Below, in pieces: positions 1 to 22,783 of a stretch of DNA of 64,000 nucleotides (the stretch's first letter is position 1; each line of letters begins with the position of its first letter). A program made the translations under genes and the position numbers. The stretch is from an uncultured Acidobacteriota bacterium (GTDB taxonomy: Bacteria > Acidobacteriota > Thermoanaerobaculia > Thermoanaerobaculales > Sulfomarinibacteraceae), in contig CAVPHA010000025.1 in the NCBI GenBank assembly GCA_963704125.1, forward strand, positions 21,481 through 85,480. The letters are read 5' to 3'. Below the pieces are notes generated by a model. The model did not search any database. It was not told the origin of the DNA and saw nothing but the letters and a program-made list of their open reading frames with translations.

Positions 1-34
1 GCCCGATGAGCCCGAAATCCGCTTTGTCAGTCAT
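1..34 (-). CDS. gnd: N-terminus of 6-phosphogluconate dehydrogenase (runs off window edge)
   Basis: Reverse strand reads GGAGGAAG RBS then ATG at 34 encoding MTDKADFGLIG, like the Gnd N-terminal motif ADxGLIGLAVMG. Lies downstream of uxaE/SDR/LarA as in Thermotoga. Only 11 codons visible. Confidence 0.6.
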   Translation of the reverse strand, partial: MTDKADFGLIG

Positions 35-122
35 TCGCTCTTCCTCCATTGAAATCGATATATGTACTCTGATCGAGCGAGACCGCGACGCGTCGAGGCG
101 TCTCCCCGACAGCAGCCTGGTC

Positions 123-196
123 GGGAGGGTGTAAAACCCTCCGCCTACGGTTCTTTCATTGATGGGGTATCCTTAGGCGGCGGGTCTACGCCCGCC
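123..196. repeat. GTAG-type REP doublet
   Basis: GGGAGGGTGTAAAACCCTCCGCCTAC (123-148) and inverted TAGGCGGCGGGTCTACGCCCGCC (174-196). The first is nearly the reverse complement of the REP inside the MITE at 29.5/63.5 kb. Confidence 0.7.
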
Positions 197-226
197 TCGC
201 GGAATGACCGATCAGGGACGGCGAGT

Positions 227-1505
227 TCAGACCGCATCGTCCTCGCCCCGCACCCGATACAACTGTTCACCGGCTCGTCGCACGAGGAGGATCCCCTCAT
301 CCTCTCGGTCCGCCCAGGCTTCCGGATCGATGGACGCCGGGTCGAGATAGCCGAGACCGATGCGTTCGCAGCGCTCCTTTGGAATCCCCGTGGCGAGAGT
401 CACATCGATGCGAGCCCTCTCGACTCCGTCGACAAACGTCCCCGCGCCGCGCACGTGGGTGGAGTGCGCGACGATCCCCCACGGGAAACGGGAGAACCTG
501 TCCCACTGGGCGGTGAAATAGTCGCGGACGTGGTAGCCGATCTCGTCGATGATCCGCCCGTGGACATAGGAGACCTCGGTGATGTGGGGAGCGTAGATCA
601 CGACCTCGCCGCCATCGGCGATGGCCGGCTCGAGCTTGTACATCCCTTTGGCGCCGGTCCACAGATCGTCGTACATTTCGGGGACCATTGAAAGCACCCG
701 CCGGTACGGCCGATCAACCCAGACGATGTCGAGCTTGGCCGACAGCTCGGTCGCCGCGCGCCAGGTCTCGTCCATCTCGCCGACAAAGAGGCCCGCGAAG
801 ATCCATGCCGTGCATGACCATGGCGATGAGCGAGCTCGGGGTCGGGATGAAGGATGCGGCACGGTTGATGAGGCGCCGCATGGGGGTGTCGGCGACACCA
901 ATGATCTCCTTGCTCGTCAGCAGTGCGCCGAGCCAGTGGGTGACATCGATGACCTCCTGCCCCGACACCCCGGGTACGAAGTACTTGTTGCCGCCGGAGA
1001 ACCCGGCGACCTCGTGCGGGAAGACCGGTCCGCAGACCAGGAGTTCGTCGTAGGGGCGTTCACCGTTGGGGTCGCCGACCAGCCTGTTGAGCCGGACCGG
1101 CACGTCGAGATCCATCCGCCCGTCACTGGCGTCGCGCATCTCCGACGCGGGTATCACTCCCACGGTCACGAATGTCTCTTCGAGATCCCAACGGTGATTG
1201 AATATCATCGAATCCCCGGTGGATCCGTCGCGGACCTCGACGCCGACCAATCGACCGAGGGCCTCGTCGCTCATGGGGGGGTGGGTACCGAGGGCCACCA
1301 GGAAATCGAGAGCCTCGACCCGTGGGCCGAGGACCTGATGCAGGAGGTAGTACATCAGCGGGATAGGCGCGGTCCGGGTGCTGTCCGGAATGACGACCAA
1401 CACCTTCTTGCCGTCGTACCTCGCGCCTTCCAGTCCCTTGGTGAGGATCCGGCGCACCTCGGAGAGAACGAGGGAACGGTCGGAGTGGCTCTCGTAGACG
1501 ACCAC
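227..1505 (-). CDS. LarA-family nickel-pincer hydroxyacid epimerase, probable D-mannonate/D-gluconate 2-epimerase (GntE-like); frameshift near 790
   Basis: ORFs 714-1505 and 227-901 join. Motifs IPDSTRT, ALGTHPPM and HEVAGFSGGNKYFVPG are typical of LarA. Syntenic with uxaE-SDR-gnd. Confidence 0.8.
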
Positions 1506-1512
1506 AACGCCC

Positions 1513-2296
1513 TCAGATGGTCATGGCGGTGAAACCGCCATCGACGCGAATCAGCGTACCGGTCACAAAACTCGACGCGGGCTCCGCCGCCAACCACACC
1601 ACCGCGCCGGCAAGCTCCTCGGCTTCACCGAATCGGCCCATGGGGGTGTGACCCAAAATCGACGCCGTTCGTTCCTCGGTGAGCAGCTTGCGGTTCTGCT
1701 CGGCGGGGAAAAAACCGGGCGCCACGGCGTTGACCCGCACCTTATCCGGCGCCCACTCGCGGGCGAGGAACTGGGTCATGTTGTTGATCCCGGCCTTGGT
1801 GATGGAGTAGGTGAAGACCTTGGAAAGCGGTGGTCCCGATGAGGCCGAGGAGACATTGATGATCGACCCGCCGTCGCCCTGCTCGACCATCCGACGACCG
1901 AAGATCTGACTGGCGAGAAAATAGCTCGTCAGATTGACGGCGAGGATCTTGTCCCACTCGTCGCGGGTGATCTCGAAGATCGGGGTCCCCGAGTTGATCC
2001 CCGGCGCGTTGAGCAGGATGTCGACCCGGCCCCACTTTTCGACGATCCGATCGAGGGCGGATTTGAGCTCGTCTGCGTTGGTGGCGTCGACCCCGATTCC
2101 CATGGCGTCGACCCCGGCCGCTCCATAGATCATATTGGCCTGCGCCACCGCCGCCTCCTCGATGAGATCGAGGACCGCGACGCGCGCACCGGCCCGGCCC
2201 AAGCGCCGTGGCCATGGCGCCGCCGAGGACGCCGCCGGCGCCGATGGTGACCGCGACCTTTCCATCCAACGAAAACAGATCTTCGAGATAGCTCAT
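1513..2296 (-). CDS. SDR oxidoreductase, probable fructuronate reductase / mannonate oxidoreductase (UxuB-like); frameshift near 2205
   Basis: LFSLDGKVAVTIGAGGVLG in one frame continues into a frame with YSITK catalytic motif and VRVNAVAPGFFPAEQNRKLL. Abuts the uxaE stop. Confidence 0.8.
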
Positions 2297-3856
2297 CAGA
2301 CCCTCCCGAAAGGTTTGGTGTGGCGCTTGAAGTGCGTCACCAAATTACTGAAGTGGACATCCTCGTTCTCTCTGAGGCAGGCCATGATCCGATCCTTGAA
2401 GAGCGTCCTGCCATCCGGGTCACGCTCGGTGAGCACCCGGCCGAAGGTGACGTGGAGCACCTGCCGCGCATCCTCGTCGTCGAGCAGCCGGACCAGGGCT
2501 TCGTCATCGAGCGTGGTCGCCGCGGGCACCCGTTCGAGCTCGCCCGAGACGTGGTACGTCCGCCGCTCGTGCTCATAAAGCGAGCGCGCAAAGTCGAGGA
2601 TCTCGCGGAAGAGCCCGGGGTCGCAGACGGCGATCGCACGCAGCGCCTCGAGGTAGCTGGTCCCCGCGGTCTTGACGTGGACGCCACCCGATCCGATCTC
2701 GCCGATGGTGCGATAGACCCCGAACTTGTCGCTGCCCGAGTGAATGCTGATCTTGTACGGGCCGAAGGCTTCGGCGATGGCGAGGTGTTTGAGGTACTCG
2801 GTTTTGAAAACACCGAGATCGCCGCGATAGTCGATCCCCTTTTCGAAGTCGCCGACGAATCGCGGCGCCAGACCGACCCACTTCACCCCCAACCGTTTGA
2901 GCTCCGAGGCCACCAGCCAGTGTTCGAAGGGGCTCGTGACCGAGGCGGTTTCGTCCACCGAGACTTCAACCTCGAACGGTCGCTCCCCCATCACCTCGAC
3001 GATGTGGCGGTACATGGTGGCGACGTGGGCCAGCGCTGCGCCGTACTTGACCAGCCCTCGGAGGACATCTTCGGTCGTGGGCTCGAGCACCAGCTCCGAT
3101 CCGATCTCGAACCGCTGTCCGGCAAATCGCGAAAGGACGCCATCGAGACTCTCACCGAGCGTCGCCCACGGCAGATCCGCGGCCGCAGCGTGGAGCTCGG
3201 CGACCGACATCTCATCGGCGGCGTCGACCACGTGGTCGCCGGGATCGATGGTGAACATGGTGAAACCGGCATCAGCCATGAGCTCGACATCGGCCGGGGT
3301 CTTGAGGTGATCGGCGTCGGCGCCGTAGCCCGAGCGCCAGCCCTCCTGAAAGACCGCCCAGGTGGCGGCGTCCATGACCTCGTCGGGGGTCCGCTCGGTG
3401 CGTTCGAGCTCGCGGATGGACTGCTGGGCGAGCACCACTTCGAAACCGCTGCCGTCCATGGCACGGAGGTGGGCAGGTCCGGCAATCCCGAGCCGGTCGC
3501 CGAGCCCGAAGCTGTCGGCCAGACCCAGGACCCGCGGCCGAGTCCACTCGAGGAGTTCCCGCAACACAGCGGCGTTGCCCGCGGTGAGGCGGCAGCGCCG
3601 AACCTGATCCTCGGTGTCGAAGGCCCACTTCAGGCAGGTGCCCTCGAAACGCTCCGACACCGGATCGTTCGGCGGCGCCACGATGTAGAGTCGGCGACCG
3701 GGCGTGCCTCGACCCATGAAAAGCAGCGCCTCGCCGATGGCGATGGACCGAGTGCGGGTAGATCTCCAACGACCGGTCGGCCATGGCGATGGGCACTCGA
3801 TCCGGACCTTCCGGCGGCGATTCGATGATTCTCAGCAGATCCTCACGGAGGTTCAT
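2296..3856 (-). CDS. uxaE: Tagaturonate/fructuronate epimerase; frameshift near 3735
   Basis: Motifs SFGLGDRLG, AQQSIRELERT, GADADHLKT, EVSVDET, FEKGIDY, KISIHSGSDKF, HVKTAGTSYLEALR, RQVLHVTFG. Confidence 0.9.
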
Positions 3857-3957: not shown

Positions 3958-5144
3958 TCAATTCAGCACCACCGTGTGCATCAGGGTGTACGGCCCACCG
4001 TGGGCGTCATCCCGGTAGACCTCGACTACGGGGCTGTCACCACCGACGATCACCCTGAAAAACGAGCTTCTCGTCTGCCCGCGACCCTCGATCTGCGCCT
4101 CGTAGTAGCGGTCGCGAGCGGTCGGATCGCTGCCGTACTCGGTGTAGAACTGGGCCAGGGTCTGGGTGACCGGCTGACCCGTCAAACCGAGGTACTTGAA
4201 CCAGTAATCGACGTGGTATTCATCATCTCGATAGAGTTGTCTGATCGAATTCGCCTCGCCGACGCCCTTCGCCTTGCCTTCCTCGATGGCGCGATGGACA
4301 GCCGCGTACATCTGATCGGCGTACGAGGCCTCCTCGAGACCGCGGGCGTGGCCCGGATCGAGCTGCCACAGCCCGTTGATCTTGCCGACGGAGGTGTTGT
4401 GGGTGTGGCCGCAGACATAGGCGTCGACGTCGTACTTCCGCAGCAGCTGGTGGAAGGCAAAGGCGGTTTCCGGGTCTTCATCGAGGGAGTCGCCCTGGTG
4501 TCGAAGCCGCCCGTTGTCCATGTCCGGCATCGGGAGTAGGGGTTCGTGGCCGAAGACAAAGATGTGTTCCTTGTCGGTGGCCTCGAGGTCCGCCGCCAAC
4601 CACGCCATGAGTTCGGGCACGAGCGCGCCTTCGAGACCCCAGTCCTTGACCCCGTCGAAGTACTGGTTGAGCACGACGAAGTGGGTGTTCGCCCAGTCGA
4701 AGGAAAAGGTCGTTTCCTCGCATCCCGCCGGACCGCGGTTGACGACATTGGGCACCGTCACGCTGTACTCGCGAAGGTACTCCATGCTCGAGGGCGACTC
4801 GGGGTCGTGGTTGCCGAGCACGGGATACCACGGGTAGTCCTCGCCGATGGTCCGGTCGATCATGTCCCGCACCGCGGACGGCGGATCGACATCGAGATCG
4901 CCGGGGCTGATCATGAAGGACCCGGCGCCGACCGCCGCGATGGCCTTGCAGGCGCCCGAAAAGTGCTCGGATTCTTCACCCGCCGCCGCGAAATTCCTCA
5001 TATCGGCCGCGATGATGAAGACCAGGTCTTCGTCCGACGGCCTCGACCCCGAACACCGGGGCCGATGCCTCCGACGAGAACCACGATGAGCAAGAGCTTG
5101 ATCAGACCGGTTGGATGGACGCGATGCACGGTTTCGCATGGCAT
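3958..5144 (-). CDS. Secreted calcineurin-like metallophosphoesterase; frameshift near the signal peptide (~5040)
   Basis: Motifs AADMR, PGDLD, GNHD, GHEP, CGHTH. Hydrophobic leader LIKLLLIVVLVGG lies in the adjacent frame from ATG 5144, after RBS GAGGAGG. Confidence 0.8.
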
Positions 5145-5620: not shown

Positions 5621-7069
5621 TCAGTCATCAACCGAGATCTCGTAGTATCCCTCGCCGGCGTCGTAGTGCTCCTGCCGCTGCTCTCGGAACCTCCTCGACC
5701 TTGTCGGGCCAGGAGGTGACGCCGTTGACGAGCTCGGAGGCCTTGACCTCGAACGGACCGCGGACGACCCGGCCGAAGGTGTCGACCAGCCGATACCTCA
5801 AGGTCGGATCATCACCCATCTTGAAGTCGATGAGGCCGAAGTTGCTCCCTTGGAAGTAGACCGGCCAGATTCGTTGTTCGGGCCGGCGTTCGAGCCAGCT
5901 GTCGGGGATGACCTGGGCCAGCGGTGAGCTGACCATGTCGTAGATGTCGTAGCCGCCGTGCTCGGACCACGGGATGACGTTGAGCTCGCCGACGTGGGTG
6001 TCACCGGAGATCCCGACCACCCCGGTGATCTCGTGATCGCGGATGAAGTCGAAGAGCCGATTGCGCTCGTGCAGGAACGCGGCCCAGGAGTCGCCGCCCA
6101 CGACCCTTGTTCTTGCTCCAGCCGCTGCCCGAGACCAGGACCTTGAAGACCGCGGTGCTCGCCTCGAGCTGCTCGGTGAGCCACGTGTACTGGGCGGCGA
6201 CCGAGCATGGTCTTCTCGGGCGTGTCCGGATCCTCGTCGGGATCGCGGTACCAGCGACCGTCGATGACGAAGAACTCCACCTGACCCCAGGTGTAGGTGT
6301 AGAAGATCCCCTTGACATCGGGCAGGCCGAACGAGGGATTCGGCCAGTACTCGAGAAAGACCTCGTAGGCGCCCGTCTTTCACCGGGTTGGTGCGATCGT
6401 GGTTGTTGAGCCCGAAGTCGTGGTCGTCCCACACCGCGAGGTTGGAGATGTTCTGGATCACCGGTTGCAGACCCGCGATCTCGCGCTGACGTCGGTACTC
6501 CTCGCGCAGGATGTCGGGATCGAGGGCGTCGGCGTAGATGTTGTCGCCGATCCAGAAGAAGATGTCGGGCTCGTAGTGAACCACCCACGGCCAGATCGGC
6601 TGGATGCGGTCGTCCTGCCACTTGGGGCAGGAACCGAAGGCGATCCGCAGATCTTCGGGTTCGCCCGCCGGCGGAGCGGTGTGGAAGCTGAAGGGCTCGA
6701 GCTTCTCGAGATAGCGGTCCCTGATTCCATCGACCCTGAGCTCGTAGAAGTACTCGGTGGACGGTTCGAGATCGGCGAGGTGATCATCGCGGTGTAGTCG
6801 TCGACCTTCTCGACCATCACCGGCTCGGTTTGCGTCGGCGATGTGAAGTCGGGAGTCACGTCGTAGACGACGGCGACGTTAAAGGCGCCGCTCGTCCGCA
6901 CCCAGATCCTGGCGTCGGTGTCGGTCACGGCGCCGACCATGGGTCCCTGCATCAGGCGGGGATAGCCGGTGGATGAAGCTTTGGCGGCAAACGCCGCCGA
7001 AACGCCGAGGAGGGAAACGAGGACCCCGACGAGGACCACGCGGCGCAGATGTTCGAGGATGATCATCAT
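5621..7069 (-). CDS. phoD: Alkaline phosphatase D family protein (secreted); several frameshifts
   Basis: Signal peptide and RLMQGPMVGAVTDTDARIWVRT, then WIGDNIYAD, WDDHDFGLNN, IDGRWYRD, ISGDTHVG across ORFs 6458-7084, 5628-6584 and 5798-6280. Confidence 0.85.
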
Positions 7070-7080
7070 CGTACCTTCTT

Positions 7081-15744: not shown

Positions 15745-16739
15745 GGCGTCTCCACCCGGACCGGTCGGTTCTCGGCCAGCGAGCGCCCCGCTGCGAGACC
15801 GATCAGCACCGACATGAGTCCGTCATGACCGCCGACGGGTGTCGGCGCATCGTCGCGAATGCACGAAAAGAAGGCCTCGAGCTCGGCGACAAACGACGCC
15901 TGGTAGCGTTCGAGGAAGAAGTAGAGGGGTTTATCGGAGCGAACACCGGCGCCGGTGCTCACCGTCACCCGGTTGGGGGTTTCGTTTGCCGCCTCGGCGC
16001 TGCCGCCCGTGCCGAAGACCTCGACCCGCTGGTCATAGCCGTAGATCGCCTGGCGGCTGTTCTCGATCACCGCGATCGCGCCGTTGGCCATCTTGAGGGT
16101 GGTGACCGCAGTGTCGACATCGCCCGCCTCGCCGATGGCCGGGTCGATGAGCACCGCGCCACAGGCGAAGACCTCCTCGACCTCGCTGCCGGTGAGGAAG
16201 CGGACCATGTCGAAGTCGTGGATGGTCATGTCGAGGAAGATGCCGCCCGAGGTCTTGACATAGGCCACCGGAGGCGCCTCCGGATCCCGCGAGGTGATCT
16301 TGACGAGGTGGATCTCACCGATCTCGCCGTCGGTCACTGCCTGCCGCACTCGAGCGAACGTGGGGTCAAAGCGTCGATTGAAGCCGACCTGAAGCTTGAC
16401 CCCGCTGTCGGTGACGACCCCGAGGGTGCGGCGGATGCGCTCGGGATCGAGATCGATGGGTTTCTCGCAGAAGACGTGCTTGCCCGCCCGCGCCGCCCGT
16501 TCGGTGAGATCGGCATGGGTCGGGGTCGGCGAGCACACGAGCACCGCCTCGATCTCGTCGTCCTCGAGAATCAGCTCCGGGTCCTTCCCGGTGGCGACGG
16601 TCGACGGCGGCCACGACGTGAAGTCGACATAGGGATCGGTGACCGCCTTGAGCTTGATTCCCGGCATCCGCAGGAGATTGTTCCCGTGGACCTGGCCGAT
16701 TCTCCCGGCGCCGAGGATTCCCACCGTGATCTGTTTCAT
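15741..16739 (-). CDS. iolG: myo-inositol 2-dehydrogenase
   Basis: GILGAGRIG, VFCEKPI, QVGFNRRFD, ITSRDP, SGGIFLDMTIHDFD, YGYDQRVEVFG, FFLERY. Confidence 0.9.
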   Translation of the reverse strand: MKQITVGILGAGRIGQVHGNNLLRMPGIKLKAVTDPYVDFTSWPPSTVATGKDPELILEDDEIEAVLVCSPTPTHADLTERAARAGKHVFCEKPIDLDPERIRRTLGVVTDSGVKLQVGFNRRFDPTFARVRQAVTDGEIGEIHLVKITSRDPEAPPVAYVKTSGGIFLDMTIHDFDMVRFLTGSEVEEVFACGAVLIDPAIGEAGDVDTAVTTLKMANGAIAVIENSRQAIYGYDQRVEVFGTGGSAEAANETPNRVTVSTGAGVRSDKPLYFFLERYQASFVAELEAFFSCIRDDAPTPVGGHDGLMSVLIGLAAGRSLAENRPVRVETP

Positions 16740-16873: not shown

Positions 16874-19573
16874 CTAGAGATCGAACCTCACACCCAGGGT
16901 CGCCCACCAGTCGTAGTACTCCTGCTGGCGGATCCGGTCCGGGGTGTTTTCGTATGCCGTGTAGGGCTCGTTGGTGATGTTGATGAACTCGAGAACGAAG
17001 CTCCACTTCTTGGTCGCCTGGACCCGGAAGAGGAAATCGAGCTGGCCGTGGTCATCGACCCAGATGTCCTCCTCGATATCGCCGCCGACCTCGATGAGCT
17101 TCTTGCCGTTGTAGTTATAGGCAAGCCGGGCCGTGATGCCGTACTTCTCGTAGACCAGGGCCGCGTTGCCGACGTGCTCGGACTGCCCGGGGAGCGCGGT
17201 GGCGTCGCGGTCGGGGTAGTTCGCTTCGGAGTCGACATAGGTGTAGTTGAGGTAGAGGCCGAGGCCTCCCCAACCACCCTTCAGGTTGGTGAACTGGTTT
17301 TGGAAGGCCAACTCGAGACCGGCGATCGTGGCCTTGTCGCCGTTTCGGGGTTGGGTGACCTCGACATCTTCGCCGTCGATGACCTCATCGGCCTGGAAGA
17401 TGTAGATGTAGTCGGTCAGATCCTTGTAGAAGACACCGGCCGAGATGATTCCAATGGGCTCCAGGTATTTCTCCCACATGAGATCGACGTTCCAGGCGGT
17501 GGTGACGTTGAGATCGGGGTTGCCGAGCTCGGCCTCGCGGTCTTCGAGGTTGACGAAGCGCCACGGCGCCATGTCCTCGAAGTTGGGCCGCGCCAGGGTG
17601 CGGGTGAGCGCCGCGCGCAATTGAGAGTCATTGCCGGTCTTGTAGACGAGGTGGAACTGGGGCAGCCACTCGGTGTAGCTCTTGTCGTCGGTGACCGGGG
17701 ACAGATCGATGGGGTCGCCCTCCTCATCGAGCACGAGCTGATAGGCCACATAGTCGTCCTTGGTGCTCTCGACACGGACGCCGCCCATGAAGGTGACGTT
17801 GGCGCCGAACATGAACTCGCCCAGGGCGTACCCGGCAAGAGTGTCCTCGTTGACCTCGAAGTCGGCCAGGTCTTCTTCGAGATTTCGCTCGGATTCCAGT
17901 AGGCCGCTCTGCGCGAGCTGCCGCATGAGACCGGGATCCTGGAAGGGGACGATCTGGTTGCCGTAGATCCCACCGAAGAACGGGGTTTCCGGCGCCCAGT
18001 TGCTCAGATAGTCGACCAGATTCAGATCCTCGTCCGACTCGAGATCATACACGTCGTAGTTCTGCGTCCGGCTCTTGGTCCGGTATTTCGCGCCGACCTT
18101 CCACAGCCCGGAGAAACCGGCGTTCTTGTAGAAACCCTTGGTCAGGTTGACGGCGCCGACCCAGTCCTCCTCCTCCGATTTCTTGGAGAGATCTTCAATG
18201 CCGTCGAACCAGTAGTCATCGACCTGCTCGTTGAGCGGATTGGCCTGGATGTTGTCCGGGTCGATGAAGTCGGGGCTGACGTTCGGGTCGAAAACCACGT
18301 CCTCCATGACGAACGCGGAGGTGTACTGATTCGGCGTCTCCTCGGACGACTTGTTGTACATGAGGAGGTAGTCCAGAACAAAGGACTCGCCGATGTTGTT
18401 CTCTCCACCGAAGGAGATCGAATTGATATAGGACGTCTGCGTCCTGTCCTTGAGGCCCCGCTCGAGTTCGTCGTCCGAGACCACGTTGTTCTTTGCGCGC
18501 CGGATCTCGGTGTCGATGTACTCGGTCCACAGACCCCGCAGGAAGTAGTTGGATCGCTGGGAAGCCCGGTAATCGAGATCGAAGGTCACGCCGTACCGTT
18601 CTCGTTCGGTGGTGTAATCACGCATCTCGAGTTCGTCGAGATCGCCGTCGTCGTAGGCCGGCTCGATGTCGTCGGCGCCCCGCTTGGTGTCGCTGCCGCT
18701 CGCCGACACCAACAGTCCCCAGTCTTTCGACTCGCCGAACCGGGTGCCGAAGGTCACGGCCCCGTTCGGGGCGGTCTCTTCCATGAGCGCGCTGTAACCC
18801 AAACCCAGCGCGGCCGAGAGCCGGAGCTGATCGGGCGCCCGCTGGGTCACCAGATTGACGGTACCGCCGATGGAGTCGCCGTCCATGTCCGGCCGCAGGG
18901 CCTTGGAAACCTGAATCGAACCCAGGAGATCGGCCGGGATGGTATCGAGGGCAACGTTGCGAACCCCCGCCTCCGGTGACGGCAGTCGCTCGCCGTTGAT
19001 CGTCGTCGAGTTGAGTCGCGCCTCGGTGCCGCGGATGATGATGTAGCGGCCCTCACCCATGTCGCGGTTCATGCTGACGCCGGGAACCCGTTGGGTTGCT
19101 TCGGCCGCGTTCTTGTCCGGAAAACGGCCGATCTGGTCGGCCGCGACGATGTTGGTGATGTTGACGAGGTTTTTCTGGGTGTTGAGCGCCTGGGCCTGGC
19201 CTTCAAGGAGTGGCGATCCCCGAACCTCGATCTCGCCGCCGTAGGCGAGCGTCATGTCCTGGGTCACCGGCTCACCGCTCACCACCGTGATATCAGCGGT
19301 CGCGCTCAACATCGCGAGATAGCTGAAGGTCAGCGTCTGCGCGCCGACCGGGACCGGCGCGATCCGGTATCTCCCGTCCAGGCCGGTCTGAACGGTGAGG
19401 TTGGTTCCGTCGACACTGACGCTGACTTCGGAAATCACATTGCCCGAAGGTCCGGTCACCGTTCCCTGGATGACACCGGTGCCATCCTGGGCGGAAACAA
19501 TGCCTGGCGCCACCGCCACCGAGATAAACAGAGCCAAAAGAGCCAAATACCTGAGTGTCTTCATGGACGCCAT
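16874..19573 (-). CDS. TonB-dependent receptor with N-terminal carboxypeptidase-regulatory-like domain
   Basis: Signal peptide, plug motifs IGRFPDKNAAEATQRVPGV and GEGRYIIIRG, DMDGDSIGGTVNL, GNPDL. C-terminal LGVRFDL. Intact 899-aa ORF. Confidence 0.95.
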   Translation of the reverse strand: MASMKTLRYLALLALFISVAVAPGIVSAQDGTGVIQGTVTGPSGNVISEVSVSVDGTNLTVQTGLDGRYRIAPVPVGAQTLTFSYLAMLSATADITVVSGEPVTQDMTLAYGGEIEVRGSPLLEGQAQALNTQKNLVNITNIVAADQIGRFPDKNAAEATQRVPGVSMNRDMGEGRYIIIRGTEARLNSTTINGERLPSPEAGVRNVALDTIPADLLGSIQVSKALRPDMDGDSIGGTVNLVTQRAPDQLRLSAALGLGYSALMEETAPNGAVTFGTRFGESKDWGLLVSASGSDTKRGADDIEPAYDDGDLDELEMRDYTTERERYGVTFDLDYRASQRSNYFLRGLWTEYIDTEIRRAKNNVVSDDELERGLKDRTQTSYINSISFGGENNIGESFVLDYLLMYNKSSEETPNQYTSAFVMEDVVFDPNVSPDFIDPDNIQANPLNEQVDDYWFDGIEDLSKKSEEEDWVGAVNLTKGFYKNAGFSGLWKVGAKYRTKSRTQNYDVYDLESDEDLNLVDYLSNWAPETPFFGGIYGNQIVPFQDPGLMRQLAQSGLLESERNLEEDLADFEVNEDTLAGYALGEFMFGANVTFMGGVRVESTKDDYVAYQLVLDEEGDPIDLSPVTDDKSYTEWLPQFHLVYKTGNDSQLRAALTRTLARPNFEDMAPWRFVNLEDREAELGNPDLNVTTAWNVDLMWEKYLEPIGIISAGVFYKDLTDYIYIFQADEVIDGEDVEVTQPRNGDKATIAGLELAFQNQFTNLKGGWGGLGLYLNYTYVDSEANYPDRDATALPGQSEHVGNAALVYEKYGITARLAYNYNGKKLIEVGGDIEEDIWVDDHGQLDFLFRVQATKKWSFVLEFINITNEPYTAYENTPDRIRQQEYYDWWATLGVRFDL

Positions 19574-19786: not shown

Positions 19787-19845
19787 TGGAACGTTCCAGG
19801 TTGCAATTCCGCGTTCCAAGCGCTATATTCTGGAACGTTCCAGAA
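19787..19845. promoter_or_regulatory. Two LacI-type operators flanking a sigma70-like promoter
   Basis: TGGAACGTTCCA at 19787-19798 and perfect 18-bp palindrome TTCTGGAACGTTCCAGAA at 19828-19845 (central CG, 44 bp apart). TTGCAA(19801)-17 bp-TATATT(19824) lies on the + strand between them, with the -10 overlapping the second operator. Confidence 0.75.
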
Positions 19846-19915
19846 GGAACATATAACCCGGATCGGCGGAAGTCAAGTGGCACCACGAGGAAACATCAGC
19901 GCCGGATCGCAGTCG

Positions 19916-20923
19916 ATGCCGACAATCCTCGATGTCGCCCGGAGAGCCGGTGTATCAAAATCACTGGTCTCCATGGTGACCCGCGGAGAGGCTGGGGTCA
20001 GCGACGAAAAACGCCGGGCGATCCTCGAGGCCATCGACGAACTCGACTACCGGCCCAACGCCATGGCGCAGGGACTCGTCATGCGCCAGACCCGGATCCT
20101 CGGAGTCATGGTTTCGGATCTCCAGAACCCGTTCTTTGCCGCGGTGATCTCCGGGATCCAGGAACGCGCGAAGGACCGCGGTTTCCGGATTCTCATCACC
20201 ACCGGCGACCGCACGCCGAGCATCGAGGAAAGCGCCATCGAGAATCTGCTCGAACTCAGGGTCGGTGGTCTGATTCTCGCCTCGCCCCGGGTCGATGACG
20301 AGGTCATCGCCCGGGCAGGACGAGCCGTTCCCGTGGTCGTTCTCAACCGCGACACCAACGACGACAACAGCGACAGCGTGACCAACGACAACATCGCCGG
20401 CGCCCATCTCGCCGTCGAGCATCTCGTCAGCTTTGGTCATCGCCGCATCGGCTTCATCGAGGGCGGCTCCGGAGCCGGCGCCCGAATCCGCCATCAGGGC
20501 TATCTCAGCGCGATGCACGACTTCGGCCTCGAAGACGAAATCCTGACCGTCGAAGGCCAACATACCGAGGAGGGCGGGTACCGCGGGGCCATGGAACTCC
20601 TCAAACTGAGGGTCCTCCCGACCGCGGTCTTCGCCTCCAACGACCTTTGCGCCATCGGCGCCATGAACGCCTTTGAAGAAGCCGGGCTGAGCATCCCCGA
20701 CGATCTTTCGCTGATCGGATACGACAACAACCGCATGGCGGCGCTGCGGCACATCTCCCTGACCACCATCGACCAGCCCGGAGACGACATGGGTCGCTCG
20801 GCGGTCGAGCGCCTGGCGGAACGGATCGACGGGGACCGGGCTGAACCGAGCCACGACGTGGTGACGCCCAGTCTCGTCGTGCGATCAACGACAGGTCCTC
20901 CACGTTTTGAACCTAAGTCATGA
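19916..20923 (+). CDS. LacI-family transcriptional regulator
   Basis: PTILDVARRAGVSKSLVS HTH, YRPNAMAQGL hinge, PTAVFASNDLCAIG, LTTIDQP. Confidence 0.95.
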   Translation: MPTILDVARRAGVSKSLVSMVTRGEAGVSDEKRRAILEAIDELDYRPNAMAQGLVMRQTRILGVMVSDLQNPFFAAVISGIQERAKDRGFRILITTGDRTPSIEESAIENLLELRVGGLILASPRVDDEVIARAGRAVPVVVLNRDTNDDNSDSVTNDNIAGAHLAVEHLVSFGHRRIGFIEGGSGAGARIRHQGYLSAMHDFGLEDEILTVEGQHTEEGGYRGAMELLKLRVLPTAVFASNDLCAIGAMNAFEEAGLSIPDDLSLIGYDNNRMAALRHISLTTIDQPGDDMGRSAVERLAERIDGDRAEPSHDVVTPSLVVRSTTGPPRFEPKS

Positions 20924-20988
20924 ATATTTGATTTACACCAATTGATAGCATCAGGCATCTCTTCGTGCAGTGAGAATGAAAAGGAGAC

Positions 20989-22142
20989 ATGATGAAAACG
21001 AGCACCGCATCGCCGACCCTCAACCCAATCCTGCTCTCAACCGCGATCCTTTCGATCGCGTGCCTGATCGCGTGCTCGGGATCGGACGCCCCGCCGGCAG
21101 CACCGACGGACACCCCCGAGGCCTCCGCGGTCGCCGCCGGCGCCATCGCCCCCATCCTCATCACCGAACCCACCGCCGTTGACACCGACGATCCCGCCAT
21201 TTGGATCAATCCGGACGACCCCGCCGGGAGCCTCATCCTCGGCACCGACAAGGGCGGCTCGATCTATGTCTTCGACCTCGACGGCAAGATCATCCCGGAG
21301 AAAACGGTCGCCGGCATGGGTCGGATGAACAACATTGACGTGGCCTACGGATTCTCCCTCGACGGGGAGACCATCGATATCGCCGCTCGCCACCGACCGC
21401 AATGAGGAACTCATCCGGGTCTTCAGGCTCCCGGAGATGACGCCGATCGACAACGGCGGTATCCCGGCCTTTGTGGGTGAAACGGATGACCGCCGACCAA
21501 TGGGTCTCGCGATGTACACGCGGCCTTCAGACGGCGCCATCTTCGCCATCGTCAGCCGCAAGTTCGGGCCCTCGGGCGCCTATCTCTGGCAGTACCTTCT
21601 CGAAGACGCCGGCGACGGAACCATCAAAGCCACCAAGGTTCGGGCGTTCGGCGACTTCATCGGCGGCAAGGAGATCGAAGCCCTCGCGGTCGACAACGAG
21701 CTCGGCTATGTCTACTACTCGGATGAGATGGCGGGGGTTCACAAGTACCACGCGGACCCCGACGCCCCCGGCGCCAACGAGGAACTCGCCTTCTTCGGCA
21801 CCGACGGGTTCGCTCAGGATCACGAGGGCATCTCGATCTACAAGATCGACGACGGGACCGGCTACATCCTGGTCTCGGACCAGCAGGCCAACGCCTTCCG
21901 CATCTTCAAACGCGAGGGTGAGCCCGGCGATCCCGCACAACCACCAACTCGTCAAGGTCGTTCAGGTTTCGACCAACGAGAGCGACGGTTCGGATGTCAC
22001 GAGCACCGTTCTCGATCCCCGCTTTCCATCGGGTCTCTTTGTCGCCATGTCCGACAACCGGACCTTCCACTTTTACTCGTGGGACGACATCGCCGGCGAC
22101 GATCTCACCAAGGCGCCCGACGGGGCACAGCCGACTCCGTGA
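20989..22142 (+). CDS. Beta-propeller phytase (3-phytase), predicted lipoprotein; frameshifts near 21388 and 21937
   Basis: Lipobox LIAC. Beta-propeller phytase signatures DTDDPAIW and NNIDV, then EIEALAVD, DHEGISIY, ESDGSDVT, FPSGLFVAM. Confidence 0.9.
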
Positions 22143-22783
22143 CCTTGCCCGACCATCGCCCATTCGACGTTCTTCTCTTCGATCTCGGCGGAGTGCTGAT
22201 GGACTTCGTGGGGTTCGACGAACTGGCGCAGTTCATGTCGGGAGCCCCCGGCCGGTCCGAGATCCGTGACCGGTGGATCCGATGCGAGGCGGTCCGACGA
22301 TTCGAACGAGGCGAGATCGCCCGCGATGAGTTCGCCACCAGCGTGCTCGAGGAGCTGGAAATCGATCTCTTGCCATCGGACTTCCTGAGGTATTTCGTCG
22401 ATTGGGCGCGGGAGCCGTCGCCGGAGGCGGTCTCCCTTCTCAGGAGGCTGGGAAGGGACTATCGAATCGCCGCGCTGAGCAACGCCAACGAGCTCCACAC
22501 ACCGCTCCACCGCCGACGTTTCGAGCACGTCATCGGCACCTTCTATTTCTCGGACGAGATCGGAATTGTCAAACCGGATCGCGAGATCTTCGAACACGTC
22601 ATCCGCGACCTCGGTGTTCCACCGCACCGGATTGCGTTCTTCGATGACACGCCGGTCAACGTCGAGGCAGCGCGCGAAGCCGGACTCATCGCTTGTGCCG
22701 TGGACGGAATCGCTGAGCTGACAACCCAACTCAAACGCCTCGGCGTCGTTGATCACACATTCGGTGAAGGCGCTCGAGGGTAG
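22139..22783 (+). CDS. HAD-family phosphatase (YihX-like)
   Basis: GTG start overlaps the phytase stop. Motifs LLFDLGGVL, ALSNAN, KPDREIF, FFDDTPVNVEAAR. Confidence 0.85.
   Translation: MTLPDHRPFDVLLFDLGGVLMDFVGFDELAQFMSGAPGRSEIRDRWIRCEAVRRFERGEIARDEFATSVLEELEIDLLPSDFLRYFVDWAREPSPEAVSLLRRLGRDYRIAALSNANELHTPLHRRRFEHVIGTFYFSDEIGIVKPDREIFEHVIRDLGVPPHRIAFFDDTPVNVEAAREAGLIACAVDGIAELTTQLKRLGVVDHTFGEGARG

What the first reader, a model, noticed from the sequence alone, without database searches (positions are those of the whole stretch)
1..22783. Phytate-to-pentose-phosphate catabolic locus joining a TonB/phytase uptake module to the Thermotoga-type inositol pathway
Seen: one LacI-centred divergon. 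Leftward it encodes TBDR, iolG, an organophosphate MFS, an IolK-like kinase, iolM, a second Gfo/Idh, iolN, iolO, a CBM9/DUF5916 barrel, PhoD, a metallophosphoesterase, uxaE, an SDR, a LarA-family protein and the start of gnd. Rightward it encodes LacI, a lipoprotein phytase and a HAD. Known: T. maritima converts myo-inositol via IolG, IolM, IolN and IolO to D-tagaturonate, and its UxaE/reductase/GntE genes lead to gluconate; the canonical iolBCDE route is absent here. Inference: the locus strips InsP6 at the envelope, imports inositol phosphates and uses the ring as a carbon source via tagaturonate, fructuronate, mannonate, gluconate and 6-phosphogluconate. I do not know of this combined arrangement being described for an Acidobacteriota-like organism.
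Basis: partly seen in the sequence, partly recalled or inferred. Interest (0 to 1): 0.85.

Follow-up and report, generated by a model that had tools for sequence, protein, structure and literature searches.

The report
Acidobacterial phytate-and-inositol catabolic regulon
A conserved gene cluster in sediment Acidobacteriota puts a phytase, other phosphatases, outer- and inner-membrane importers and a Thermotoga-type inositol breakdown pathway under one local repressor, which suggests these bacteria use phytate as a carbon source as well as a phosphorus source.

Summary

- **Pathway identity:** IolG, IolM, IolN and IolO pass NCBIfam equivalog cut-offs. Each has the T. maritima protein as its outstanding PDB match where one is solved.
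- **Conservation:** The arrangement recurs in 6 of 6 relatives checked in detail.
- **Phytase link:** In a 201-genome class sample, all 12 phytase-bearing genomes are among the 15 IolN-bearing ones. None of the 186 others has a phytase.
- **Regulation:** A perfect palindrome, TGGAACGTTCCA, occurs only twice in the 4.6 Mb genome. Both copies lie between lacI and the TonB receptor gene and bracket divergent promoters. It recurs in 33 of 115 fetched loci, including a sister family where it precedes an IolM–phytase–acid-phosphatase operon.
- **Additions:** A PfkB kinase beyond gnd may replace the missing gluconate kinase. The organophosphate MFS and a PPi-type IolK form a fixed pair (27 loci with both, 0 with MFS alone).
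- **Frameshifts:** About 20 single-base frameshifts in the window look like assembly errors.

Function is inferred; there is no expression or biochemical evidence. I found no published description. I rate it a new variant of known kinds.

The parts
1..34 (-). 5' end of gnd (6-phosphogluconate dehydrogenase). The gene continues left of the window and is followed there by a PfkB KDG-kinase-like gene (L002:17413-18495, minus strand).
   Evidence: ATG at 34-32 behind GGAGGA. The flank ORF has NAD_binding_2 and 6PGD domains. Intact orthologue L023:1924-3381 scores TIGR00873 766 bits against cut-off 426.7. The PfkB gene's best PDB hit is 2afb, 1.4e-48.
227..1505 (-). GntE-like LarA-family (nickel-pincer) hexonate epimerase candidate. 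One window-specific extra base lies near 794.
   Evidence: Lar_N domain. Intact orthologue against PDB: 4nar 3.4e-62, next hit 4e-6. 4nar is T. maritima GntE2 per PMC7583248. NCBIfam NPN_18_hexonate scores only 174 against cut-off 500. LarC is present in the genome.
1513..2295 (-). SDR, candidate fructuronate reductase / mannonate oxidoreductase (UxaD role). Frameshift near 2203.
   Evidence: adh_short_C2 domain. The orthologue's best NCBIfam hit is PRK08277 D-mannonate oxidoreductase, 265 against cut-off 281. PDB top hit is 4g81 'putative hexonate dehydrogenase'; 1vl8 ranks only 11th.
2296..3717 (-). UxaE tagaturonate/fructuronate epimerase.
   Evidence: PF16257 510.7 bits, E 4.8e-153. Single copy in the genome.
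3958..5120 (-). Secreted metallophosphoesterase, purple-acid-phosphatase/GpdQ-like. N-terminus frameshifted in the window.
   Evidence: Metallophos domain. The orthologue has a signal peptide. GD/GNHD/GHTH motifs are invariant in 8 of 8 orthologues. The model is moderate (pLDDT 71). Best folds are purple acid phosphatases, Rv0805 and GpdQ.
5628..7084 (-). PhoD-like phosphatase/phosphodiesterase with DUF7800/PhoD_N domain and a signal peptide. Several window-specific 1-nt indels.
7081..9150 (-). Outer-membrane beta-barrel with an N-terminal CBM9-like domain (DUF5916). Frameshift near 9000. Accessory: absent from G002, G009, G010 and G011.
   Evidence: DUF5916 hit. Orthologue model has pLDDT 89.5 and pTM 0.85. 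CBM9 structures 1i82, 7nwn and 7nwo match at TMt 0.72-0.75. The barrel matches LptD, usher and TBDR barrels.
9194..10000 (-). IolO, 5-keto-L-gluconate epimerase.
   Evidence: NF041099 338.8 against cut-off 300. PDB 2zvr TM_0416 1.2e-67, next hit 2.5e-29.
10009..11133 (-). IolN, 3-dehydro-scyllo-inosose hydrolase (creatininase fold).
   Evidence: NF041098 305 against cut-off 245. PF02633.
11165..12217 (-). Second IolG-like Gfo/Idh/MocA dehydrogenase. Substrate unknown; possibly another inositol isomer.
   Evidence: TIGR04380 302.9, below cut-off 355. PDB 3ezy 2.8e-63.
12214..13404 (-). IolM, scyllo-inosose 3-dehydrogenase. Extra base at 12366 and a missing base near 12663.
   Evidence: NF041097 482 against cut-off 450. 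PDB 3ip1 1.9e-93, next hit 6.7e-35.
13467..14378 (-). IolK, PPi-type ribokinase-family inositol kinase.
   Evidence: PDB TM0415 (1vk4, 5ysp) at 5e-43. Signature residues K171, F221, R229, R232 and D234 are kept; M266 is V. These are invariant in 34 of 34 sequences.
14375..15744 (-). Organophosphate:phosphate antiporter-family MFS. Frameshifts near 14748 and 15478. Always adjacent to IolK.
   Evidence: Orthologue scores: UhpC 293, PgtP 280, GlpT 254 bits, all below equivalog cut-offs.
15741..16739 (-). IolG, myo-inositol 2-dehydrogenase.
   Evidence: TIGR04380 449 against cut-off 355. PDB 3ezy 1e-96 and 4hkt 4.7e-95.
16874..19573 (-). TonB-dependent receptor with CarboxypepD_reg N-domain.
   Evidence: Pfam Plug and barrel domains. 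TIGR01782 TonB-Xanth-Caul 509.8 against cut-off 310.
19787..19842 (.). Two copies of the perfect palindrome TGGAACGTTCCA (19787-19798 and 19831-19842), the presumed LacI operators. They bracket a + promoter-like site (19801-19829) and abut a - promoter-like site (19876-19848).
   Evidence: 2 matches against 0.11 expected. These are the only 2 perfect copies in the genome. The sites are conserved in 7 of 7 compared genomes and occur in 33 of 115 loci.
19877..20923 (+). LacI-family repressor.
   Evidence: LacI HTH plus Peripla_BP_1/3 domains. No equivalog; best hit RbsR 229 against cut-off 382.
20989..22140 (+). Lipoprotein beta-propeller phytase homologue. Frameshifts near 21383, 21446 and 21932.
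   Evidence: PF02333 in two pieces. Intact orthologue is 400 aa and scores 148.8 bits. This is the only PF02333 locus in the genome.
22140..22783 (+). HAD-IA phosphatase with no signal peptide. Fused to the phytase frame in the window by a frameshift; a separate 206-aa ORF in G010.
   Evidence: An HAD part was found in G002, G010 and G011 of 6 relatives.

Best explanation
This is a self-contained, LacI-repressed regulon for taking up inositol phosphates (phytate and its partial hydrolysis products) and burning the inositol ring.

**Shown at sequence level**
- A lipoprotein beta-propeller phytase.
- Signal-peptide-bearing PhoD-like and purple-acid-phosphatase-like esterases.
- A carbohydrate-type TonB-dependent receptor.
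- In some genomes, a CBM9-barrel outer-membrane protein.
- An organophosphate/Pi-antiporter-family MFS fixed next to a PPi-type inositol kinase homologue (IolK).
- A cytoplasmic HAD phosphatase.
- The full Thermotoga-type enzyme set: IolG, IolM, IolN, IolO, UxaE, an SDR reductase, a GntE-like LarA epimerase and Gnd.

**Inferred mechanism**
1. Phytate is partly dephosphorylated at the envelope.
2. It crosses the outer membrane through the TBDR.
3. It is trimmed in the periplasm.
4. A low inositol phosphate enters through the MFS in exchange for Pi.
5. It is converted to myo-inositol by the HAD and/or IolK.
6. The ring is oxidised by this route: scyllo-inosose, 3-dehydro-scyllo-inosose, 5-keto-L-gluconate, D-tagaturonate, D-fructuronate, D-mannonate, D-gluconate.
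7. The PfkB kinase next to gnd phosphorylates gluconate, and Gnd feeds ribulose-5-P into the pentose-phosphate pathway.

The LacI repressor binds two TGGAACGTTCCA operators over divergent promoters and is released by an unknown pathway metabolite. The frameshifts in this copy are assembly errors, not gene decay.
For: **Enzyme identities**
- NCBIfam equivalogs over cut-off: IolO 338.8/300, IolN 305/245, IolM 482/450, IolG 449/355.
- T. maritima structures are outstanding PDB hits.
- UxaE scores 510.7 bits.
- The GntE-like protein matches 4nar at 3.4e-62, and LarC is present.
- gnd scores 766/426.7.

**No alternative routes found**
- iolD, iolE and iolB are not over cut-off in the own genome.
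- UxuA is found in 0 of 12 genus genomes.
- Eda is found in 2 of 12.
- GntK TIGR01313 is over cut-off in 0 of 12.
- The FGGY gntK model scores only 142/648.
- The PfkB kinase is adjacent to gnd in 5 of 5 genus relatives. G001's copy is cut by the fetched stretch.
- It also sits with gnd and LarA in Chloroflexota loci.

**Phosphate side**
- The MFS is of the UhpC/PgtP/GlpT type.
- PF02333 phytase with a lipobox.
- Signal peptides on PhoD, the metallophosphoesterase and DUF5916, but none on the HAD.

**Linkage**
- The whole locus is kept in 6 of 6 relatives examined.
- In 5 of 5 further genomes the single phytase hit lies just beyond the IolN locus.
- Class sample: IolN in 15 of 201 genomes and phytase in 12 of 201.
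  - All 12 phytase genomes are IolN-positive.
  - 0 of 186 IolN-negative genomes has a phytase.
  - The two genes lie 10-17.5 kb apart on one contig in 7 genomes.
- A sister family (G213) has a different arrangement:
  - The beta-propeller phytase there is only 27% identical.
  - An AppA-family histidine acid phosphatase scores 295.6 bits as top hit.
  - Both lie in an operon with IolM behind the same operator.

**Regulon**
- The operator is genome-unique.
- It is conserved in 7 of 7 compared genomes.
- It overlaps divergent promoter-like sites.

**Frameshifts as errors**
- About 20 window-specific 1-nt indels lie in genes otherwise 80-99% identical to relatives.
- Short-read contigs lack the extra base at 12366 (4 of 4 runs), 15481 (4 of 4) and 6198 (2 of 4).
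- Completeness is 65.66% in a 32-contig assembly.
Against: - **No functional data:**
  - There is no biochemical or genetic evidence for any step.
  - There are no expression data of any kind.
- **Phytase is not universal:** 3 of 15 IolN-bearing genomes lack a phytase hit.
  - These are G027, G150, and G016, which has only fragments.
  - The core can therefore work without it.
- **Phytase assignment is family-level only:** The nearest NCBIfam model is a 'phytase-like phosphatase', at 120.7 against cut-off 440.
- **Non-independent sample:**
  - The phytase-bearing genomes fall in only 4 genera of 2 families.
  - The perfect co-occurrence overstates independence.
- **Weak assignments:**
  - The SDR is below cut-off and not specifically like 1vl8.
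  - The gluconate-kinase step rests on a KDG-kinase-like PfkB protein with no equivalog.
  - The MFS matches no equivalog, so its substrate is unknown.
- **IolK role is open:**
  - Its physiological role is unknown even in T. maritima.
  - T. maritima did not grow on inositol.
- **Contig test is not strain-matched:** The contigs come from related populations at 90-99% identity, not certainly the same strain. Real frameshifts in this strain are not excluded.
Confidence: 0.68

Rival explanations
1. The locus catabolises free inositols (myo-, scyllo- or chiro-). The phytase and phosphatases are a loosely attached phosphorus-scavenging add-on. The TBDR and MFS carry inositol or an unrelated solute.
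For: - The conserved core exists without a phytase hit in G027 and G150.
- Chloroflexota loci carry IolN, IolO, IolM and IolG without any TBDR, MFS or phosphatase. TBDR is found in 0 of the 52 loci lacking MFS and IolK.
- Two IolG-type dehydrogenases suggest several inositol isomers.
- A sugar-type LacI repressor, not a Pho regulator, controls the locus.
Against: - The MFS belongs to the organophosphate:Pi antiporter family, not the sugar-porter type.
- No IolN-negative genome of 186 has a phytase.
- Phytase genes sit behind the same operator in two different arrangements.
- Up to four phosphatase classes are recruited to the locus across lineages.
Confidence: 0.13
2. The natural substrate is another inositol phosphodiester rather than phytate. 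Candidates are glycerophosphoinositol or lipid head groups, or di-myo-inositol phosphate. The diester would be cleaved by the PhoD-like and GpdQ-like esterases, and the MFS would import inositol-1-phosphate or glycerophosphoinositol.
For: - PhoD-type enzymes and GpdQ/Rv0805-like folds are phosphodiesterases.
- The MFS resembles GlpT and UhpC.
- PhoD is kept in G150, which has no phytase hit.
Against: - Beta-propeller phytase homologues are present in 12 of 15 IolN-bearing genomes.
- An AppA-family acid phosphatase/phytase homologue joins the locus in G213.
- No glycerol-3-phosphate or lipid-related gene was seen in the locus.
Confidence: 0.12
3. In this particular organism the locus is a decaying pseudogene cluster, and the frameshifts are real.
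For: - About 20 window-specific 1-nt indels hit at least 9 genes.
- They are mostly not in homopolymer runs (contexts).
Against: - There are no large deletions, and protein identity to relatives stays at 80-99% outside the shifts.
- The whole assembly scores only 65.66% complete despite having just 32 contigs, as expected from genome-wide indel error.
- Independent short-read contigs lack three of the extra bases.
- Relatives G001 and G016 show similar breaks in other genes.
Confidence: 0.05

Closest known systems
Thermotoga maritima inositol operon (TM0411-TM0416: IolG, IolM, IolN, IolO, IolK) with the uxaE-uxaD-gntE-gntK-gnd genes of the UxaR regulon
   Same: - The enzyme families and inferred chemistry from myo-inositol to D-tagaturonate and on to 6-phosphogluconate are the same.
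- IolM, IolN, IolO and IolG pass the NCBIfam equivalogs built for that pathway.
- TM_0416 and TM0415 are named PDB best hits.
- GntE2 (4nar) is the best hit of the LarA homologue.
- The gene names and operon are as given in PMC3750489 (passages).
   Different: - Here both halves lie in one locus.
- It is under a LacI-family repressor rather than ROK-family IolR and GntR-family UxaR.
- Uptake is by a TBDR plus an organophosphate-type MFS rather than the InoEFGK ABC system.
- Phytase, PhoD, metallophosphoesterase and HAD phosphatases are added.
- GntK is missing, and a PfkB kinase sits by gnd.
- A second IolG paralogue is present.
- IolK has the acceptor-site residues of 'homologue No. 49' (L, L, S), not those of TM0415.
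- The original papers (Rodionova 2012, 2013) were not held. I know them only from reference lists and recall.
Beta-propeller phytase genes paired with TonB-dependent receptor genes in Proteobacteria (recalled from Lim et al. 2007, ISME J; not retrieved in any call)
   Same: A beta-propeller phytase homologue is genetically linked to a TonB-dependent receptor of the Xanthomonas/Caulobacter carbohydrate type.
   Different: - Those pairs are discussed as phosphorus-acquisition modules.
- Here the pair is embedded in a carbon-catabolic regulon with a sugar-type repressor, an organophosphate MFS and a full ring-cleavage pathway.
Canonical iolABCDEFGHIJ inositol catabolism (Bacillus subtilis type)
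   Same: Both begin with IolG oxidation of myo-inositol.
   Different: - No iolD, iolE or iolB was found over cut-off in the genome.
- The ring is opened hydrolytically after a second oxidation (IolM, IolN) and ends in the pentose-phosphate pathway, rather than in DHAP plus acetyl-CoA.
Phytate use by cross-feeding between phytase producers and inositol degraders in gut communities (PMC12838507 and PMC12482443, passages read)
   Same: The overall chemistry is the same: phytate to inositol to central metabolism.
   Different: - In those reports the two capacities are often in different organisms. For example, 7 of 18 phytate degraders lacked an inositol cluster.
- Here both are co-regulated in one locus of one organism.

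Membership tests
Thermotoga-type inositol pathway | IolM scyllo-inosose 3-dehydrogenase (NF041097 equivalog) | tested here: met
   482 bits against cut-off 450 despite a frameshifted C-terminus. PDB 3ip1 1.9e-93 against next hit 6.7e-35.
Thermotoga-type inositol pathway | IolN 3-dehydro-scyllo-inosose hydrolase (NF041098 equivalog) | tested here: met
   305 bits against cut-off 245. In the 14 control genomes this model rings only in T. maritima.
Thermotoga-type inositol pathway | IolO 5-keto-L-gluconate epimerase (NF041099 equivalog) | tested here: met
   338.8 bits against cut-off 300. PDB TM_0416 1.2e-67.
Thermotoga-type inositol pathway | IolG inositol 2-dehydrogenase (TIGR04380) | tested here: met
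   449 bits against cut-off 355.
Thermotoga-type inositol pathway | Enzyme activities that convert myo-inositol to D-tagaturonate | not testable with these tools
   This needs coupled in-vitro assays.
PPi-dependent ribokinase-family kinases (TM0415 group, PMC5931981) | Five donor-site signature residues: K171, F221, R229, R232, M266 | tested here: inconclusive
   K, F, R and R are kept. M266 is V in the window. In 34 sequences that position is V 14, M 13, I 5, L 2, and the other four residues are invariant. Four of five are met and the fifth is conservative. Some of the 34 sequences come from the same genomes fetched twice.
UxaE tagaturonate epimerase (PF16257) | Full-length match over the gathering score | tested here: met
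   510.7 bits against cut-off 27.1, model positions 47-473 of 475.
GntE D-mannonate/D-gluconate 2-epimerase (LarA superfamily, NPN-dependent) | Specific similarity to characterised GntE, and presence of NPN cofactor biosynthesis | tested here: inconclusive
   Best PDB hit is 4nar (GntE2) at 3.4e-62, 214 bits. LarC is present at 425 bits. The only NCBIfam hexonate-epimerase model hit, NPN_18, scores 174 against cut-off 500. Catalytic and loop residues were not inspected.
UxaD / fructuronate reductase role | Specific similarity to a characterised mannonate/fructuronate oxidoreductase | tested here: inconclusive
   PRK08277 scores 265 against cut-off 281. PDB hits are generic SDRs, and 1vl8 ranks 11th.
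Gluconate kinase (GntK) | A TIGR01313 or TIGR01314 match over cut-off in the genome | tested here: not met
   TIGR01313 has no match in the own genome and is over cut-off in 0 of 12 genus genomes. TIGR01314's best score is 142 against cut-off 648. A PfkB KDG-kinase-like gene next to gnd is the candidate substitute.
Beta-propeller phytase (PF02333) | Family match over the gathering score | tested here: met
   The intact orthologue scores 148.8 bits against cut-off 21. The window pieces score 71.4 and 65.5 bits. Activity on phytate is not testable here.
Organophosphate:Pi antiporter family of MFS | Best matches are UhpC, PgtP, GlpT and UhpT | tested here: met
   Scores are 293, 280, 254 and 158 bits, all below the equivalog or subfamily cut-offs. 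This shows family-level membership only, and the substrate is unknown.
LacI-family local repressor with palindromic operator | HTH_LacI plus a periplasmic-binding-protein fold, and a conserved CG-centred palindrome at its own promoter | tested here: met
   The palindrome occurs twice and is genome-unique. It is conserved in 7 of 7 genomes and in 33 of 115 loci. Binding itself is not testable here.
Canonical iolBCDE pathway | iolD, iolE and iolB equivalogs | tested here: not met
   iolD's best score is 42 against cut-off 715. iolE and iolB have no match. The genome is 65.66% complete by markers.
CBM9 + DUF5916 outer-membrane barrel | CBM9-like beta-sandwich followed by a large beta-barrel | tested here: met
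   The model has pLDDT 89.5. CBM9 structures match at TMt 0.72-0.75, and LptD, usher and TBDR barrels also match. Pfam CBM9 itself did not hit at E 0.001.

The most novel reading that the evidence does not exclude
**Proposal.** The fixed gene pair of organophosphate/Pi-antiporter MFS and PPi-type IolK is an energy-conserving entry step.
- An inositol monophosphate enters in exchange for Pi.
- IolK then runs in reverse (InsP + Pi gives myo-inositol + PPi). The phosphoester energy of phytate-derived InsP is saved as pyrophosphate instead of being lost to a phosphatase.
- This would give IolK the physiological role that has been missing since the T. maritima pathway was described.
- In addition, the KDG-kinase-like PfkB protein next to gnd would be a new type of gluconate kinase.

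**Basis.**
- MFS and IolK co-occur in 27 loci, with MFS alone in 0 and IolK alone in 1 (a 4-kb contig).
- The gap between them is 11-40 nt in 25 of 27 loci.
- PPi-binding residues are invariant in 34 of 34 sequences.

The direction of the reaction and the transported species are pure inference.
Probability: 0.2. Interest if true: 0.8.

Novelty: new variant of a known kind. Interest (0 to 1): 0.62.

Why it matters
- **Reframing of sediment phytases:**
  - Phytate and other inositol phosphates are a large organic phosphorus pool in soils and sediments.
  - A 2025 survey lists Thermoanaerobaculia among the main phytase carriers in marine sediments. It treats them purely as phosphorus mineralisers (PMC12406696, passages).
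  - This locus suggests the phytase there belongs to a substrate-induced carbon-catabolic regulon. That would change how phytase gene counts in sediments should be read.
- **Reach of the Thermotoga route:**
  - The locus extends the 'Thermotoga' inositol route to abundant mesophilic lineages.
  - IolN is 80-99% identical across Acidobacteriota and Chloroflexota MAGs.
- **One-organism counter-example:** It contrasts with the cross-feeding picture of phytate use.
- **Testable hypotheses:**
  - The operator sequence and its repressor.
  - A role for the PPi-dependent kinase IolK.
  - A substrate class for a new organophosphate MFS subfamily.
  - A candidate non-orthologous gluconate kinase.

Tried and rejected
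**Searches and tests that led nowhere**
- Rfam, gathering thresholds, on window 1-24000: 0 matches.
- Consensus fold of the ~215-nt TBDR leader in 7 genomes. Only -7.58 kcal/mol with a positive covariation term, so no leader structure is claimed.
- No RNA holder was listed for window 5601-15600, so expression could not be addressed.
- The 20 listed DNA holders share at most 0.29 of the words. Habitat labels of the small-share runs are not used as evidence.
- PDB comparison did not single out 1vl8 for the SDR.

**Ideas considered and rejected**
- I asked whether the ABC transporter at window 31663-35762 belongs to the locus.
  - It is 79% identical to the transporter embedded in G213's locus.
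  - It has no operator nearby.
  - In G010 the gene beyond the HAD is an unrelated two-component propeller protein.
  - I left it out of the parts.
- I considered a UxuA/KdgK/Eda route from mannonate. I set it aside because UxuA was found in 0 of 12 genus genomes and Eda in 2 of 12.

**Literature searches that found no description of this locus**
- Searches were poorly targeted. One search returned ophthalmology hits. In one search, none of the 15 listed papers held 'Sulfomarinibacter'.
- (inositol catabolic pathway / Thermotoga maritima / tagaturonate).
- (phytase + TonB-dependent receptor + inositol catabolism: 0 papers).
- (beta-propeller phytase / TonB / iolG: 11 papers, none relevant by title or abstract).
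- (the three enzyme names: 1 unrelated paper).
- (phytate, sole carbon source, inositol dehydrogenase, phytase).
- (Thermoanaerobaculia + phytase: 1 paper).
- (Sulfomarinibacter + inositol: 0 papers).

**Limits on what I could read**
- PMC9414882 and PMC5507952 held nothing relevant beyond reference lists.
- Supplementary tables were closed. Supplementary Table 2 of PMC5931981 would identify 'homologue No. 49'.
- The supplements of PMC12406696 could not be seen and may bear on the IolK and Thermoanaerobaculia statements.

Full report
**Where the window lies.**
- The window is G000:C25:21481-85480 of a 4.63 Mb, 32-contig assembly. It is rated 65.66% complete and 1.35% contaminated.
- The closest named relatives of its IolN locus are MAGs labelled Acidobacteriota, Thermoanaerobaculales, Thermoanaerobaculia, 'Holophagae' and Candidatus Sulfomarinibacteraceae.

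**Gene content (observation).**
- On the minus strand, from right to left:
  - TBDR 16874-19573. It has Plug, barrel and CarboxypepD_reg domains, and TIGR01782 'TonB-Xanth-Caul' scores 509.8/310.
  - IolG 15741-16739 (TIGR04380 449/355).
  - An MFS 14375-15744. Its intact orthologue is most like UhpC, PgtP and GlpT (293, 280 and 254 bits, all below equivalog cut-offs).
  - IolK 13467-14378.
  - IolM 12214-13404 (NF041097 482/450).
  - A second IolG-like dehydrogenase 11165-12217 (303/355).
  - IolN 10009-11133 (NF041098 305/245).
  - IolO 9194-10000 (NF041099 338.8/300).
  - DUF5916 7081-~9150.
  - PhoD-like 5628-7084.
  - A metallophosphoesterase 3958-~5120.
  - UxaE 2296-3717 (PF16257 510.7 bits).
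  - An SDR 1513-~2295.
  - A LarA homologue 227-1505.
  - The gnd start codon at 34-32.
- On the plus strand:
  - LacI 19877-20923.
  - A beta-propeller phytase 20989-~22140.
  - A HAD ~22140-22783.
- The left flank holds the rest of gnd.
  - It is followed by a PfkB kinase, an IS200-like Y1 transposase and a 2417-aa FG-GAP protein.

**Comparison with T. maritima.**
- Where structures exist, the T. maritima proteins stand far above other PDB entries:
  - IolO against 'TM_0416' (2zvr): 1.2e-67, next hit 2.5e-29.
  - IolM against 3ip1: 1.9e-93, next hit 6.7e-35.
  - IolK against 'TM0415' (1vk4, 5ysp): about 5e-43.
  - IolG against 3ezy: 1e-96.
- That 3ip1 and 3ezy are T. maritima entries is my recollection. 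The tool gives no organism.
- The intact orthologue of the LarA homologue matches 4nar at 3.4e-62, with lactate racemase next at 4e-6.
  - PMC7583248 (passages) states that 4NAR is GntE2 of T. maritima, a D-mannonate/D-gluconate 2-epimerase.
- The nickel-pincer cofactor enzyme LarC is encoded elsewhere in the genome (425 bits).
- The SDR is only generically assigned. D-mannonate oxidoreductase PRK08277 scores 265/281, and there is no specific link to 1vl8.
- The T. maritima gene set gnd, uxaE, uxaD, gntE, gntK and the ROK-family IolR are as described in PMC3750489 (passages).

**Missing and substituted steps.**
- The canonical route was not found. iolD's best score is 42/715, and iolE and iolB have no match.
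- The dehydratase route from mannonate is also not encoded.
  - UxuA is found in 0 of 12 genus genomes, 9 of which are at least 90% complete.
  - Eda is found in 2 of 12.
- No gluconate kinase was recognised.
  - TIGR01313 is over cut-off in 0 of 12 genomes.
  - TIGR01314 scores 142/648.
- The PfkB kinase lies directly beyond gnd. Its best PDB hit is 2afb '2-keto-3-deoxygluconate kinase' at 1.4e-48.
  - It is conserved at that place in the five genus relatives.
  - It travels with gnd and the LarA homologue in Chloroflexota loci.
  - I infer that it is the gluconate kinase. This is not shown.

**Localisation signals.**
- The window's phytase begins with a signal peptide and lipobox (…LIAC|S). 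G010's has …FAGC.
- PhoD, the metallophosphoesterase and DUF5916 orthologues have N-terminal signal-like segments. The HAD has none.
- The DUF5916 orthologue was modelled from a 40-sequence alignment, with pLDDT 89.5 and pTM 0.85.
  - It has a CBM9-like N-domain (1i82, 7nwn, 7nwo; TMt 0.72-0.75).
  - It also has a large beta-barrel resembling LptD, usher and TBDR barrels.
- The metallophosphoesterase keeps the GD, GNHD and GHTH motifs in 8 of 8 orthologues.
  - At moderate model confidence (pLDDT 71), it is nearest to purple acid phosphatases, Rv0805 and GpdQ.

**Conservation.**
- IolM over cut-off occurs in 10 of 41 relatives' genomes, G000 included, mostly in the same genus.
- Six relatives with the cluster were compared by tblastn: G001, G002, G009, G010, G011 (same genus) and G016 (same family).
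  - All 6 keep phytase(-HAD) <- LacI | TBDR-IolG-MFS-IolK-IolM-Gfo2-IolN-IolO-(DUF5916)-PhoD-(MPE).
  - The five genus members continue with UxaE-SDR-LarA-gnd-PfkB. In G016's fetched stretch a TBDR-like gene follows MPE, and no UxaE to PfkB was hit.
  - DUF5916 and the metallophosphoesterase are present only in G001 and G016.
  - PhoD is lacking in G002.
  - An HAD part was found in G002, G010 and G011.
- In five further genomes (G041-G045) the single PF02333 hit lies within about 1-2 kb of the end of the IolN±10 kb locus, in 5 of 5 cases.
- In a sample of 201 genomes of the class:
  - IolN is present in 15 and phytase in 12.
  - All 12 phytase genomes are IolN-positive.
  - None of the 186 IolN-negative genomes has a phytase.
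  - The two genes lie 10-17.5 kb apart on one contig in 7 genomes.
  - In G006 the phytase shares a contig with IolM.
  - In the remaining 4 genomes the two genes are on different contigs of fragmented assemblies.
- These genomes fall in 4 genera of 2 families, so they are not independent.
- IolN-positive genomes without a phytase hit are G027, G150 and G016. In G016, tblastn sees frameshifted pieces.

**An independent arrangement.**
- G213 (sister family) has [operator]-IolM'-beta-propeller phytase-MetA-like barrel-histidine acid phosphatase on one strand.
- It then has an ABC transporter, LacI, and [operator]-TBDR-[operator]-TBDR-IolG-IolG-MFS-IolK-IolN-IolO.
- Its phytase is only 27% identical to G010's.
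- The extra phosphatase has 'AppA family phytase/histidine-type acid phosphatase' as its top NCBIfam hit (295.6 bits, below the 585 cut-off).
- Recruitment of different phytase-class enzymes to the same regulon in two lineages is the strongest comparative argument that inositol phosphates are the substrate.

**Regulation.**
- The lacI-TBDR spacer holds two perfect copies of TGGAACGTTCCA, at 19787-19798 and 19831-19842. The chance expectation is 0.11.
- These are the only perfect copies in the 4.63 Mb genome.
- Between them lies TTGCAA-17-TATATT on the + strand.
- Next to the second copy lies TTGACT-17-TATGTT on the - strand.
- Both hexamer pairs and both palindromes are conserved in 7 of 7 genomes compared, while the spacers vary in G002 and G016.
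All 33 are Thermoanaerobaculia-type loci that include this spacer or a phytase flank. The other 82 loci have none.
- In G043 (locus L108) a fourth copy lies just upstream of the phytase gene.
- In the window's genus there is no operator in the 65-nt lacI-phytase spacer. Co-transcription of lacI, phytase and HAD is therefore likely, but this is inference.

**IolK and the MFS.**
- PMC5931981 (passages and section 9) shows three things:
  - TM0415 is a PPi-dependent myo-inositol kinase that makes Ins(1)P.
  - Its physiological role is open.
  - K171, F221, R229, R232 and M266 mark PPi dependence.
- In the HMMER alignment the window's IolK keeps K, F, R, R and the catalytic D234, with V at M266.
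- Its acceptor-site residues are L, L and S at positions N78, S89 and L116.
  - This is the same triple the paper reports for 'homologue No. 49'.
  - That homologue used PPi with myo-inositol but gave products other than Ins(1)P.
- All these residues are invariant in 34 of 34 IolK sequences from the loci. Position 266 is V, M, I or L. Some genomes are represented twice.
- Among the 80 IolN loci:
  - MFS and IolK occur together in 27, MFS alone in 0, IolK alone in 1 (a 4-kb contig), and neither in 52.
  - The gap between them is 11-40 nt in 25 of 27.
  - A TBDR is seen in 18 of the 27 and in 0 of the 52.
- The phosphate-handling module is thus specific to the Acidobacteriota version. The Chloroflexota-labelled loci carry only the ring-cleavage and downstream genes.

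**Frameshifts.**
- Alignment with four relatives shows about 20 single-base indels peculiar to the window. They fall in LarA, the SDR, PhoD, IolM, the MFS, the phytase and others.
- Short-read contigs from four runs (two samples, one study) lack the window's extra base at 12366 (4 of 4 runs), 15481 (4 of 4) and 6198 (2 of 4).
- The low marker completeness of a 32-contig assembly points the same way. I read the frameshifts as assembly error with roughly 85-90% confidence.
- The contigs are from related populations, so this is not proof.

**Literature.**
- I found no paper describing this locus.
- PMC12406696 (passages) lists Thermoanaerobaculia among the top phytase-bearing classes, exclusively in sediments. 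It frames phytases as a phosphorus source. It contains none of the terms TonB, iolG, inositol catabolism or carbon source.
- Gut studies describe phytate carbon use as cross-feeding between organisms (PMC12838507 and PMC12482443, passages).
- NCBI already names IolN homologues in Anaerolineae MAGs '3-dehydro-scyllo-inosose hydrolase'. The spread of the pathway beyond Thermotoga is thus implicit in annotation, though I found no discussion of it.

**Verdict.**
- It is a new combination of known modules, with three new elements worth testing:
  - the private LacI operator and regulon;
  - the MFS-IolK pair;
  - the PfkB kinase in place of GntK.
- Function, substrate range and induction remain to be shown.

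Noticed in passing
window 5190-5615: The spacer between the PhoD-like gene and the metallophosphoesterase gene is rich in repeats. It has GC-rich motifs repeated within it and an AATTCATAATTC-type simple repeat at 5586-5612. In the metagenomic contigs its summed depth is 308-415, against about 10-100 for the neighbouring bins, with many loose ends at 5583 and 5614. This suggests a widely dispersed REP/MITE-like element.
   Followed up: partly
L002:16033-17103 (G000:C25, about 3-4 kb left of the window): An IS200-like Y1 transposase (PF01797) lies just beyond the PfkB kinase, possibly a REP-associated tyrosine transposase. It is followed by a 2417-aa FG-GAP/PKD/beta-helix protein at L002:8687-15940.
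   Followed up: no
window 31663-35762 (minus strand): A ribose/allose-type ABC transporter with permease and substrate-binding protein in one frame. It runs on from a glycerate kinase frame. It is 79% identical over 635 residues to the transporter embedded in the LacI-controlled inositol locus of G213. No operator lies nearby in the window. It may be a free-inositol importer.
   Followed up: partly
window 10009-11133 and loci L028-L107: IolN is unusually conserved. All 80 best loci are 79-99% identical to the window's protein, across MAGs labelled Acidobacteriota, Chloroflexota (Anaerolineae, Ardenticatenales), Desulfobacterales, Gallionellaceae and others. In many of the same loci IolM is only about 40% identical. 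This suggests strong constraint and lateral transfer, and two IolM types.
   Followed up: partly
window 23743-24690 (minus strand): An XRE-type HTH fused to an IrrE/ImmA-like M78 peptidase domain lies right after the locus. The ORF at 22749-23450 has no family hit.
   Followed up: no
L113:6156-6947 (G213): A MetA-pathway (Phenol_MetA_deg) outer-membrane barrel gene lies between the beta-propeller phytase and the histidine acid phosphatase in the sister family's operon. This is a second kind of outer-membrane protein recruited to the system, besides the CBM9-DUF5916 barrel.
   Followed up: no
window 19618-19650 (TBDR leader): A G/C-rich segment (…CCGCACCCGGGGGGGAGGCCCG… on the minus strand) is conserved in the 5' leader of the TBDR operon within the genus. 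No convincing consensus structure and no Rfam match were found.
   Followed up: yes
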